Shown here: in pieces, positions 3,006 through 58,306 of the stretch | Position numbering within the stretch: position 1 is the first letter of the stretch | How the letters are laid out: every line of letters starts with the position of its first letter | NCBI GenBank assembly: GCA_964016885.1 | Contig: OZ024749.1 | Location: forward strand, 51,770,001 to 51,834,000 | Length of the DNA: 64,000 bases | Source of the DNA: Eledone cirrhosa | Lineage: Eukaryota | Direction: 5' to 3' | Notes under the pieces: model-generated | Databases searched by the model: none | What the model saw: only the letters and a program-made list of their open reading frames with translations | Told to the model about the DNA's origin: nothing | Program-made: the position numbers and the translations under genes

Positions 3006-3091
<86 letters not shown>

Positions 3092-3098
<7 letters not shown>

Positions 3099-3145
3099 TA
3101 ACAGATTAAAGTTTAAGCAAAGAATCGCTGCTTTCACCCTTAACG
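3092..3145 (-). mobile_element. (TA)n-embedded short element, family L (3' part)
   Basis: Near-identical to 23185-23236 (+), 55290-55335 (+) and 58243-58293 (-); all are flanked by (TA)n. Confidence 0.8.
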
Positions 3146-11305: not shown

Positions 11306-11696
11306 TATTAGAAGACTAAATAAAATGCATTCAAATAGAGATGGAGAAGAATTATTAATCGGGAATTTATCGCCATATTCTCTGTACACTTCTTGAATGG
11401 AACAAATGGAATGAAACATGGATTCCATGTTTTACGATCTGTGATCAGCACCATTAATTATTTCTGTTGACTTTAAGAAGGGATTACGATATTTATGAGG
11501 CCCTACCCCACCACCACTAACACCACCAACGTCGCCACCACTACTATCACCACCACCACCACCACCAGCACCACCACCACCACGACAAACACCACCACCA
11601 CCACCACCGCCACCACCACCACCATTAACAGCACCAACAACCATCAACACCAGCACCTTTAAGACATCCTTTAAGCATATTGGTGTATATTAATTC

Positions 11697-11806
11697 ATAT
11701 ATAAACATATATACATAAGTTTATATACAAAGAAAATATGGGCAGCTTCGCAACGAGGCTGCCCATATTTTTATTGTACATAAACTTATTATATATGTTT
11801 ATATAT
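11697..11806. repeat. Fold-back palindrome, ~50-bp imperfect arms, 3-nt loop (11751-11753), abutting (TA)n
   Basis: AAATATGGGCAGCTTCG caa CGAGGCTGCCCATATTT with extended AT-rich pairing. Confidence 0.85.
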
Positions 11807-11825
11807 TTATGTATGAATGTGTATG

Positions 11826-11899
<74 letters not shown>

Positions 11900-11900
11900 A

Positions 11901-11969
<69 letters not shown>

Positions 11970-11971
11970 TG

Positions 11972-12003
<32 letters not shown>

Positions 12004-12009
12004 AATATG

Positions 12010-12105
<96 letters not shown>

Positions 12106-12114
12106 AATATGTAT

Positions 12115-12863
12115 ATATATAAATATGTATATATATGTATAAGTATGTACACGTACATACATATATGTATACAGACGTACAGTAGTATGTATATATATAT
12201 ACATACATGCACACATATATATATGTACGTATGGATTCACCGAACATTTATTTTAATGCTCGGTGTGTTTGTAAACAAACATCCCGTATTAAGCCGTAGT
12301 GTTCAGCAACCATCGTTGCTCGTTTGTTCAACACTGACAAAGGAACGCTGTACTAGTTTCAAGCTTATTAGCTATCGTCAGCAACGTATACTTTCCTGCC
12401 AGATTGTTGAACGTATATACTTACCTTATGCATATTAACGGCTGAGTAGTCCAATTTGCATATCGAGTGGGTTAATCGGCCGGGTGCACCGAAAACGATA
12501 AACGGAAAAAATGAAACGAAATTTCATTTTCCACTCTTAGTACGGCTGTTACTTAAATATAAATATGTACACGTACATACATATATGTATACACACGTAC
12601 AGTAGTATGTATATATATATACATACATGCACACATATATATATGTACGTATGGAGTCACCGAACATTTATTATAAACCGAGCATTATAATAAATGTTCG
12701 GTGAATCCATACGTACATATATATATGTGTGCATGTATGTATATATATATATATACATACTACTGTACGTCTGTATACATATATGTATGTACGTGTACAT
12801 ACTTATATTTAAGTAACAGCCGTACTAAGAGTGGGAAATGAAATTTCGTTTCATTTTTTCCGT
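12115..12863 (-). mobile_element. Hammerhead-bearing element: 420-nt partial tandem repeat plus inverted copy (PLE pLTR / retrozyme-like)
   Basis: Direct repeat with period 420 (CGAACATTTA at 12241 and 12661); inverted arms 12502-12676 / 12685-12863; HHR at 12345-12387; AAG/GTAAGT and AATAAA on the minus strand; (TA)-rich flanks. Confidence 0.75.
12345..12387 (-). ncRNA. Minimal type I hammerhead ribozyme
   Basis: ACGTTG-CTGACGA-T-AGCT aata AGCT-T-GAAA-CTAG-TA-CAGCGT; palindromic CTAG helix III loop and GUA triplet. Confidence 0.85.
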
Positions 12864-13404
12864 GTATATATATGTATATATATAAATATGTATATATATA
12901 TATATGTATATATATAAATATGTATATATATATATGTGTATATATATATGTGTGTAAATATAAATAAGTATATATATATATGTATATATATATAAATATG
13001 TATATATATATGTGTATATATAAATATGTATATATATATATGTATATATATATAAATATGTATATATATGTGTAAATATAAATATAAATATATATATATA
13101 TATAACACGCGTATTGTTATTGTTTCGTTTATCATAGAAGCCAGAGGCTAGAATACGCATGTGAATCTCAGAAAATTACTCTCTATATTATTAACCTTCT
13201 ATAAAAATGATGGTGGCGTTTAAAGACATAATTTAATTAGTTCACAAACTTTTGTGTGATTCCTGCCTCCGGTTATGAAGGAGAGGACGTCACGTGATTT
13301 AAACGGAAGTCCTTAAAGATCAAAATTCTTCAGTTATTAATTCGCTACAGGTAAAAATTACCGTACAGTGTTACTGAGTCAGAATTTCCGCTATGGAATT
13401 ATGC

Positions 13405-20368: not shown

Positions 20369-21435
<1,067 letters not shown>

Positions 21436-23129: not shown

Positions 23130-23236
23130 GTAATAATAATAATAAAATTGAAGACTAAAATCCAAAGTTTCAGAAGATCCCGTTCAGGGTGAAAGCAGCG
23201 ATTCTTTGCTTAAACTTTAATCTGTTATTTTAATAA
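23129..23236 (+). mobile_element. Family L element with variant hammerhead core
   Basis: CAGAAGA-T-CCC gttca GGG-T-GAAA at 23171-23194; AATAAA at the end; (TA)n on both sides. Confidence 0.65.
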
Positions 23237-23240
23237 ATAA

Positions 23241-55233: not shown

Positions 55234-55257
55234 TATGCATATATATATATATATATA

Positions 55258-55335
55258 GTAATAATAATAAATTTGAAGACTAAAATCCAAAAGCAGCGAT
55301 TCTTTGCTTAAACTTTAATCTGTTATTTTAATAAA
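55258..55335 (+). mobile_element. Family L element with the hammerhead core deleted
   Basis: Same as 23129-23236 but lacking the CAGAAGA..GGGTG segment. Confidence 0.75.
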
Positions 55336-55385
55336 TATATATATATATTTATGCATATATATATATATATTTATGCGGACTCACG

Positions 55386-58086: not shown

Positions 58087-58293
<207 letters not shown>

Positions 58294-58306
58294 TATATAT
58301 ATTTCA

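What the first reader, a model, noticed from the sequence alone, without database searches (positions are those of the whole stretch)
12115..12863. 420-nt monomer with one hammerhead, in partial tandem plus an inverted copy
The minus strand reads as 3' part + full 420-nt unit, with donor-like AAG/GTAAGT, a minimal hammerhead (CUAG loop) and AAUAAA. A ~175-bp inverted copy is joined at 12676/12685. A greater-than-unit-length tandem is what reverse transcription of a circular or multimeric RNA, or a PLE partial-tandem pLTR, would leave. The palindromic CUAG loop fits dimer-dependent cleavage.
Basis: partly seen in the sequence, partly recalled or inferred. Interest (0 to 1): 0.75.

Follow-up and report, generated by a model that had tools for sequence, protein, structure and literature searches.

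The report
Hammerhead retrozyme insertion with Penelope ends
This is one copy of a 420-base non-coding repeat, present thousands of times in this animal genome, that carries a predicted self-cutting RNA motif and sits as two back-to-back arms with fixed ends in a TA repeat, likely because a Penelope-type jumping gene copied it; this kind of element is already known.

Summary
Minus arm 12676-12138 is 1.28 units of a 420-nt repeat. An inverted arm of 191 nt (12677-12867) abuts it with no spacer. The unit is far from single-copy: its 31-nt hammerhead core occurs 10,046 times. In 108 loci, 156 of 177 arm ends fall at two sites 59 nt apart, mostly in (TA)n. In 38 of 42 scorable head-to-head insertions one arm ends at each site, as here. 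This is the published Penelope-like element (PLE) footprint; an ORF-bearing PLE in this genome also has two fixed ends. The unit has no ORF, so it is a non-LTR retrozyme, likely moved by a PLE enzyme. Copies are not randomly permuted: 3' ends are fixed, 5' ends vary. Arms cross the predicted cut site, so the template was uncut multimer or circle; DNA-level duplication also occurs. The splice donor is limited to one subfamily. Cleavage, circles and the partner element are untested or not found. The scan described this system before on other DNA of this genome (e1-8665316, probably the same family).

The parts
12138..12676 (-). Main arm: q1-420 plus q1-119 (1.28 units), 5'-truncated, ending at the short fixed end (about q120)
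12257..12676 (-). One full 420-nt unit, no ORF; 97-98% identical to the best genomic copies over the 333-nt query
12346..12386 (-). Type I hammerhead motif with short palindromic helix III; predicted cut between 12351 and 12350; U.U in place of the usual G10.1-C11.1 pair
12419..12427 (-). AAG/GTAAGT donor-like motif; GT only in the young subfamily; splicing untested
12498..12556 (-). Internal copy of the 59-nt tail (q121-179), between the two fixed 3' end sites
   Evidence: TA loose ends at 12498 in runs X1, X4, X6
12667..12672 (-). AATAAA (q5-10; second copy at 12247-12252); kept in 211 segments, few variants; use untested
12677..12867 (+). Inverted arm: q413-420 plus q1-179, ending at the long fixed end; joined 5' to 5' with the main arm at 12676/12677
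12809..12867 (+). One-sided terminal tail (59 nt), present on this arm only
11830..12137 (.). Left (TA)n / compound AT microsatellite flank (target)
12868..13104 (.). Right compound AT microsatellite flank; a 30-nt direct repeat with the left flank is simple sequence, so a target-site duplication cannot be called

Best explanation
The stretch is one insertion of an abundant, ORF-less 420-nt hammerhead-bearing repeat (a non-LTR retrozyme) built as two head-to-head arms that end at two fixed sites 59 nt apart, and it was likely written into a TA microsatellite by a Penelope-like element's reverse transcriptase-endonuclease acting in trans. Shown: anatomy, copy number, fixed ends, one end of each kind per insertion, TA targets, arms that cross the predicted cut site, and matching subfamily letters in both arms. 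Inferred: the enzyme (probably a dimer) cuts both strands, each 3' end primes reverse transcription at one of the two internal start sites, both cDNAs stop at variable points, and they are joined by end-joining with little or no overlap. Inferred, less firmly: the template is longer than one unit in effect, either a circle made by hammerhead cleavage and ligation or an uncut multimeric transcript (about 50:50; I lean to the circle for short homogeneous arrays). Predicted: the hammerhead cleaves only as a dimer or with protein help.
For: Copy number: 10,046 exact 31-nt cores; 27,625 matches to a looser core pattern; 24,634 to a 15-nt tail word. Ends: 73 short, 83 long, 21 other of 177. Pairing: 38 of 42 scorable head-to-head pairs are short+long (binomial p 2.8e-8; 54 pairs in all, 12 with one unscorable end); 25 of 26 in the position-ordered subset; 13 of 14 in tail-selected loci, several of which are local duplicates. 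TA run follows 57 of 67 long and 46 of 55 short ends (narrow classes); one locus in unique DNA, L014, has a 12-bp direct repeat. Independent contigs show TA loose ends at 12498 in X1, X4 and X6. Positive control: a PLE with a 713-aa RT/GIY-YIG-like frame has two fixed ends 88 nt apart into TA (32 and 26 hits at the two peaks). Both arms agree at 1330 of 1403 diagnostic cells against 61% between loci. 148 of 179 arms span the cut site, 27 span two or more (loci were chosen for the hammerhead), 46 of 88 in tail-selected loci. 5' ends do not pile at the cut (2 of 108, expected 5.4; 4 of 88). Stem I pair 293:329 is U-G 123, A-U 31, G-U 13, other 8; a sister family at 71-77% identity keeps stem I and core. 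Literature: partial tandem, inverted 5'-truncated copy, one-sided tail (PMC8557442, PMC3846280); two internal RT starts define the tail, both strands cut and extended, AT-rich target, predicted dimer (PMC11167929); retrozymes as non-autonomous PLE derivatives (10.64898/2026.07.22.740005, PMC7229834).
Against: No autonomous partner: none of three ORF-bearing PLE families sampled (30 loci each) shares termini with the unit. No RNA evidence of expression, cleavage or circles. The motif has U.U instead of G10.1-C11.1 and an average folding energy; 8 of 9 predicted Xenopus retrozymes did not cleave in vitro (10.64898/2026.07.22.740005) and hammerhead mutants did not impair PAc insertion in vitro (PMC11167929). 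The tail is 59 nt against the 30-40 nt in the papers read. In the young subfamily, opposite arms are no closer than unrelated copies (3.1% against 3.3%, p 0.22), so a shared template is shown only at subfamily level and also fits one source locus active at a time. Four of 42 pairs break the end rule. The covariation reflects a few subfamily events, not independent changes.
Confidence: 0.85

Rival explanations
1. Same PLE-driven insertion, but the template is a linear, uncut multimeric transcript from a tandem source locus; no circle is needed and the hammerhead is an inherited, largely idle pLTR part.
For: Long arrays exist that could give such transcripts (131 units over about 55 kb). Units of one arm can differ in a shared way: alternating A/B units in L061, shared variants in L183. 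Unprocessed RNA was the main substrate for PAc (PMC11167929).
Against: Arrays such as L176 (11 segments, 0-3 private changes each, 11 fixed differences from the window unit) and L178 are nearly uniform, as repeated copying of one monomer would give; 120 of 166 within-locus variants are singletons. An A/B pattern also fits a dimeric circle. The hammerhead keeps its pairing across subfamilies.
Confidence: 0.45
2. The copies are 5'-truncated terminal stubs (pLTRs) of an autonomous PLE that has not been found.
For: Most insertions are 1-2 units long, as PLE stubs are; the anatomy (donor-like motif, hammerhead, tail) is that of a pLTR.
Against: Downstream of q179 the sequence either ends in TA or continues into q180 of the same unit in the tail-selected loci printed; arrays of 3 to 131 units contain no ORF. 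PLE ORFs near copies are separate insertions with other termini.
Confidence: 0.1
3. A satellite-like DNA repeat spread and rearranged at DNA level; the tandem and inversion in the window are local duplication and fold-back.
For: The 131-unit array shows block duplication (nearest neighbours 28 and 15 units apart, median distance 0); L177 holds whole insertions duplicated in tandem; the window's two 5' starts are only 8 nt apart.
Against: Fold-back would give two identical ends, yet 38 of 42 pairs have one end of each kind; near-equal 5' starts are no more frequent than chance (4 of 54, expected 4.0); even the 131-unit array ends at q123 and q179.
Confidence: 0.04

Closest known systems
Metazoan non-LTR retrozymes (Cervera and de la Pena 2020, PMC7229834, passages and Discussion read; Li, Clavereau and Pollet 2026, 10.64898/2026.07.22.740005, parts 1-3 of 5 read, supplements closed)
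   Same: Non-coding unit of 150-450 nt with one type I hammerhead per unit, low GC, dispersed as monomers, dimers and long arrays; PLE mobilisation proposed.
   Different: The hammerhead has the short palindromic helix III and lacks G10.1-C11.1; the window copy has only one hammerhead, so it fails the preprint's 'active' definition; the passages read do not describe two-armed insertions with fixed ends for retrozymes; circles are not shown here.
Insertions of endonuclease-bearing Penelope-like elements (Craig et al. 2021, PMC8557442; Arkhipova et al. 2013, PMC3846280; passages read)
   Same: Partial tandem, adjacent inverted 5'-truncated copy, tail on one end only, microsatellite targets; non-autonomous multi-copy derivatives are mentioned for Chlamys.
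   Different: No ORF; tail 59 nt rather than 30-40 nt.
Poseidon PAc of Anolis (Frangieh et al. 2024, PMC11167929, parts 1-2 of 4 read)
   Same: Two internal RT start sites bounding the tail; AT-rich target; both strands cut and extended; hammerhead upstream of the start sites.
   Different: PAc is autonomous and its start sites lie in the ORF; here they lie in a non-coding unit and no enzyme is identified.
[quoted passage not shown]
   Same: Short helix I, palindromic helix III/loop 3, predicted dimer-only folding; circle-templated more-than-unit copying was proposed there.
   Different: Helix II is 4 bp with a U.U base rather than 6-8 bp with G10.1-C11.1.

Membership tests
Non-LTR retrozyme | Head-to-tail non-coding unit of a few hundred nt, dispersed in many copies | tested here: met
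   420 nt; 10,046 core matches; no RT-like ORF in units
Non-LTR retrozyme | One type I hammerhead per unit | tested here: met
   Motif at q291-331; stem I covariation; kept in sister family; no Rfam hit
Non-LTR retrozyme | Loci with two or more consecutive hammerhead-bearing units | tested here: met
   Family level: 27 of 179 arms span two or more cut sites. The window copy itself has one.
Non-LTR retrozyme | Self-cleavage of the transcript | not testable with these tools
   Bench assay needed; U.U at the base of helix II is atypical
Non-LTR retrozyme | Expressed as monomeric circular RNA | not testable with these tools
   No RNA holder listed
Penelope-like element insertion footprint | Partial tandem plus inverted 5'-truncated copy | tested here: met
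   54 head-to-head junctions in 108 loci
Penelope-like element insertion footprint | Tail on one end only, from two fixed 3' ends | tested here: met
   38 of 42 pairs; length 59 nt, longer than the 30-40 nt published
Penelope-like element insertion footprint | AT-rich or (TA)n target with short TSD | tested here: inconclusive
   TA target met; TSD readable in 1 of 38 pairs (L014, 12 bp), the rest simple sequence or none
Autonomous Penelope-like element | RT plus GIY-YIG ORF between pLTRs | tested here: not met
   No ORF in or joined to the unit in the loci examined
Autonomous Penelope-like element | Spliceosomal intron in the pLTR / 5' UTR | tested here: inconclusive
   GT donor in 78 of 80 young and 5 of 78 older segments; no RNA to test splicing
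Non-autonomous derivative of a named PLE | Terminal sequence shared with an autonomous partner | tested here: inconclusive
   Three PLE families sampled, none matches; more families exist and were not examined

The most novel reading that the evidence does not exclude
A PLE dimer loads one small hammerhead-made RNA circle at two sites 59 nt apart and copies it round and round from both ends of a double-strand break. The family's thousands of insertions would then be a genomic record of rolling-circle, twin-primed retrotransposition, and the unit a ready 420-nt substrate for testing how PLE tails, inversions and tandems arise. Hints: one end of each kind per insertion; both arms of one subfamily type; near-uniform arrays; and 6 of about 50 short+long pairs in which the long-ended arm stops at q117-126, right at the second start site (L003, L038, L073, L248, L254, L255; suggestive only, as short arms are favoured anyway).
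Probability: 0.4. Interest if true: 0.55.

Novelty: new member of a known kind. Interest (0 to 1): 0.3.

Why it matters
The window copy itself is an ordinary, slightly decayed insertion. The family matters modestly: it gives direct footprint evidence that an animal retrozyme is moved by PLE machinery, which the papers read here propose from co-occurrence and pLTR similarity, and it puts numbers on the one-sided tail rule. If circles and twin priming are confirmed, it would help settle how PLE tandem and inverted insertions form.

Tried and rejected
Rfam: only low-complexity microRNA hits below gathering score in the window, and no hammerhead hit on the unit. RNA: no RNA holder listed; contigs of four runs of unknown kind were laid on 12230-12555 only, so the arm junction was not checked in reads. 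Autonomous partner: three protein searches and three tail-variant patterns found other PLE families and sister non-coding units of 449-589 nt, no partner. Pfam (6 proteins) and PDB (1 protein) did not recognise the PLE frames; their identity rests on motifs I read in the sequence (YRDD, GIY-YIG-like, cysteine linker) and on PMC8557442. Random circular permutation: rejected. Linear hammerhead-cut monomer as template: not supported, as 5' ends do not pile at q327; template jumps are not excluded. Fold-back at the junction: not enriched. A-to-I editing scars: A>G 104 against T>C 100 overall, 49 against 29 in the young set (p 0.023, one of 12 uncorrected tests), not claimed. High hammerhead conservation is not used, because most loci were selected on it. 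The pile of 5' ends at q25-34 is an alignment artefact of the internal TA tract. Rows dropped: 7 duplicate loci; low-complexity-only hits; 30 duplicate or array loci; columns q28-112 in distance counts (q28-60 or q28-62 in the array analyses). Scripts ended in errors after printing the results cited.

Full report
OBSERVATION. Positions in the unit (q) count from window 12676 downwards. The window holds a 539-nt minus-strand arm, 12676-12138 (q1-420, then q1-119), and a 191-nt plus-strand arm, 12677-12867 (q413-420, then q1-179), joined 5' to 5' with no extra base. Both flanks are AT microsatellite. Rfam does not recognise the hammerhead and its folding energy is average.

COPY NUMBER. The window lies in a 3.0-Gb assembly. 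The best copies are 97-98% identical. The exact 31-nt core occurs 10,046 times, control 0; a looser core pattern 27,625 times. There is a young subfamily (about 3% between copies) and older ones (about 8%), and a sister family at 71-77% identity.

ENDS. I mapped 179 arms in 108 loci: 29 best matches and 79 taken in order along one contig by exact core match, after dropping 7 duplicates. Of 177 complete 3' ends, 73 lie at q110-124 (peak q120) and 83 at q166-181 (peak q179); 21 lie elsewhere (the classes were widened, because older copies lose alignment a few bases early). Most are followed by TA runs. There are 54 head-to-head junctions. Of the 42 with both ends scorable, 38 have one short and one long end, 2 have two short and 2 have two long (p 2.8e-8). 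Tail-selected loci give 13 of 14, with some duplicates. The window follows the rule. 5' starts are spread over the unit and are not enriched at the cut site or at equal positions in the two arms. Contigs from runs X1, X4 and X6 show TA loose ends at 12498, which is q179.

WHAT MAKES SUCH ENDS. PLE insertions are described as partial tandems with an adjacent inverted 5'-truncated copy and a 30-40 bp tail often on one end only, with microsatellite targets (PMC8557442 and PMC3846280, passages). For PAc the tail is the stretch between two internal RT start sites, and the protein cuts and extends both strands of AT-rich DNA and is predicted to be a dimer (PMC11167929, parts 1-2 of 4). As a control, an abundant ORF-bearing PLE in this genome shows two fixed ends 88 nt apart running into TA. 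The 420-nt unit has no ORF and is followed by itself, so it needs an enzyme in trans. Three PLE families were sampled; none shares its termini.

TEMPLATE. The window's main arm starts, in RT terms, at q120 and runs 539 nt, through the predicted cut site at q326; a cut linear monomer would allow 214 nt (from the sequence). Across loci 148 of 179 arms span a cut site (biased by selection) and 46 of 88 in tail-selected loci. So the template was a circle or an uncut multimer, barring template jumps. Both arms of an insertion agree at 95% of subfamily-diagnostic cells against 61% between loci, and older insertions have arms 3.9% apart against 8.5% between loci; in the young subfamily there is no such difference (p 0.22). 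L176 and L178 are near-uniform arrays, whereas L061 alternates two unit types and L183 shares variants among units. A 131-unit array keeps both fixed ends but grew by block duplication. Tandem length alone therefore does not prove a circle.

RIBOZYME. The core is CUGACGA...GAAA...UA with a 5-bp stem I. One stem I pair switches between U-G, A-U and G-U across subfamilies (167 of 175 segments paired). The ACUAGU palindrome is predicted to pair between two copies (6 bp), as in dimeric metazoan hammerheads (PMC4209133, passages and Discussion). Helix II is closed by U.U, not G10.1-C11.1, so activity is uncertain. The window copy has a single hammerhead and could not form a cis dimer by itself (inference). 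The GT donor belongs to the young subfamily only.

KNOWN OR NEW. It fits metazoan non-LTR retrozymes (PMC7229834, passages and Discussion; preprint 10.64898/2026.07.22.740005, parts 1-3 of 5, supplements closed and possibly relevant to family lists). Four paper searches (listings only, apart from the six papers named) showed no description of this family, nor of two-armed fixed-end insertions for a retrozyme; the one-sided tail itself is in print for PLEs. I saw the two ends, before looking at earlier notes. Those notes report the same system several times in this genome; e1-8665316 gives 422 nt, 59 nt and a 4.2-kb array, which matches L176 in size, so it is probably this family. I reuse its reading of copying from both ends of a break, and tested it as above. 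A look-up by sequence and one near the window returned nothing.

VERDICT. A real feature and a new member of a known kind: a retrozyme insertion with a PLE footprint (0.85). Circle against multimer is open. Interest 0.3.

Noticed in passing
window 23131-23239 and 55255-55338 (single ends also at 3086-3145 and 58239-58295): Small head-to-head stubs of an ORF-bearing PLE family, one arm ending at each of its two fixed sites 88 nt apart.
   Followed up: partly
window 32257 (+), 54400 (-), 58370 (-), 47737 (+), 8460 (-), 40791 (-): Further hammerhead-like motifs of other sequence families found by a loose pattern.
   Followed up: no
window about 11690-11820 and 20980-21129: Near-perfect palindromes inside TA-rich DNA, possibly other two-armed stubs.
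   Followed up: no
L305-L310 (G000:C1, about 96.983-97.039 Mb): A 131-unit, 55-kb satellite of this family that still has the two-armed layout and both fixed ends; it grew by block duplication; 71 of 131 cores are intact.
   Followed up: yes
L061:1549-3473: Alternating A/B units with almost no private changes in one arm: a dimer period, from a dimeric template, local duplication or assembly.
   Followed up: partly
L187, L191, L199, L204: Sister family at 71-77% identity, units of 449-589 nt, same tail end and hammerhead with CUGAUGA core; 1,239 matches to its tail pattern.
   Followed up: partly
L316-L345: A very young PLE family (99% amino-acid identity among top copies, frames up to 927-928 aa) with its own minimal hammerhead after the ORF.
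   Followed up: partly
window:12230-12555, runs X5 and X6: Related sequence in contigs of two other coded organisms; X6 shows the same TA loose end at 12498, and one X5 contig keeps the hammerhead and tail with 134 other letters between.
   Followed up: partly
L177: Two two-armed insertions, each duplicated in tandem with its flanks.
   Followed up: no
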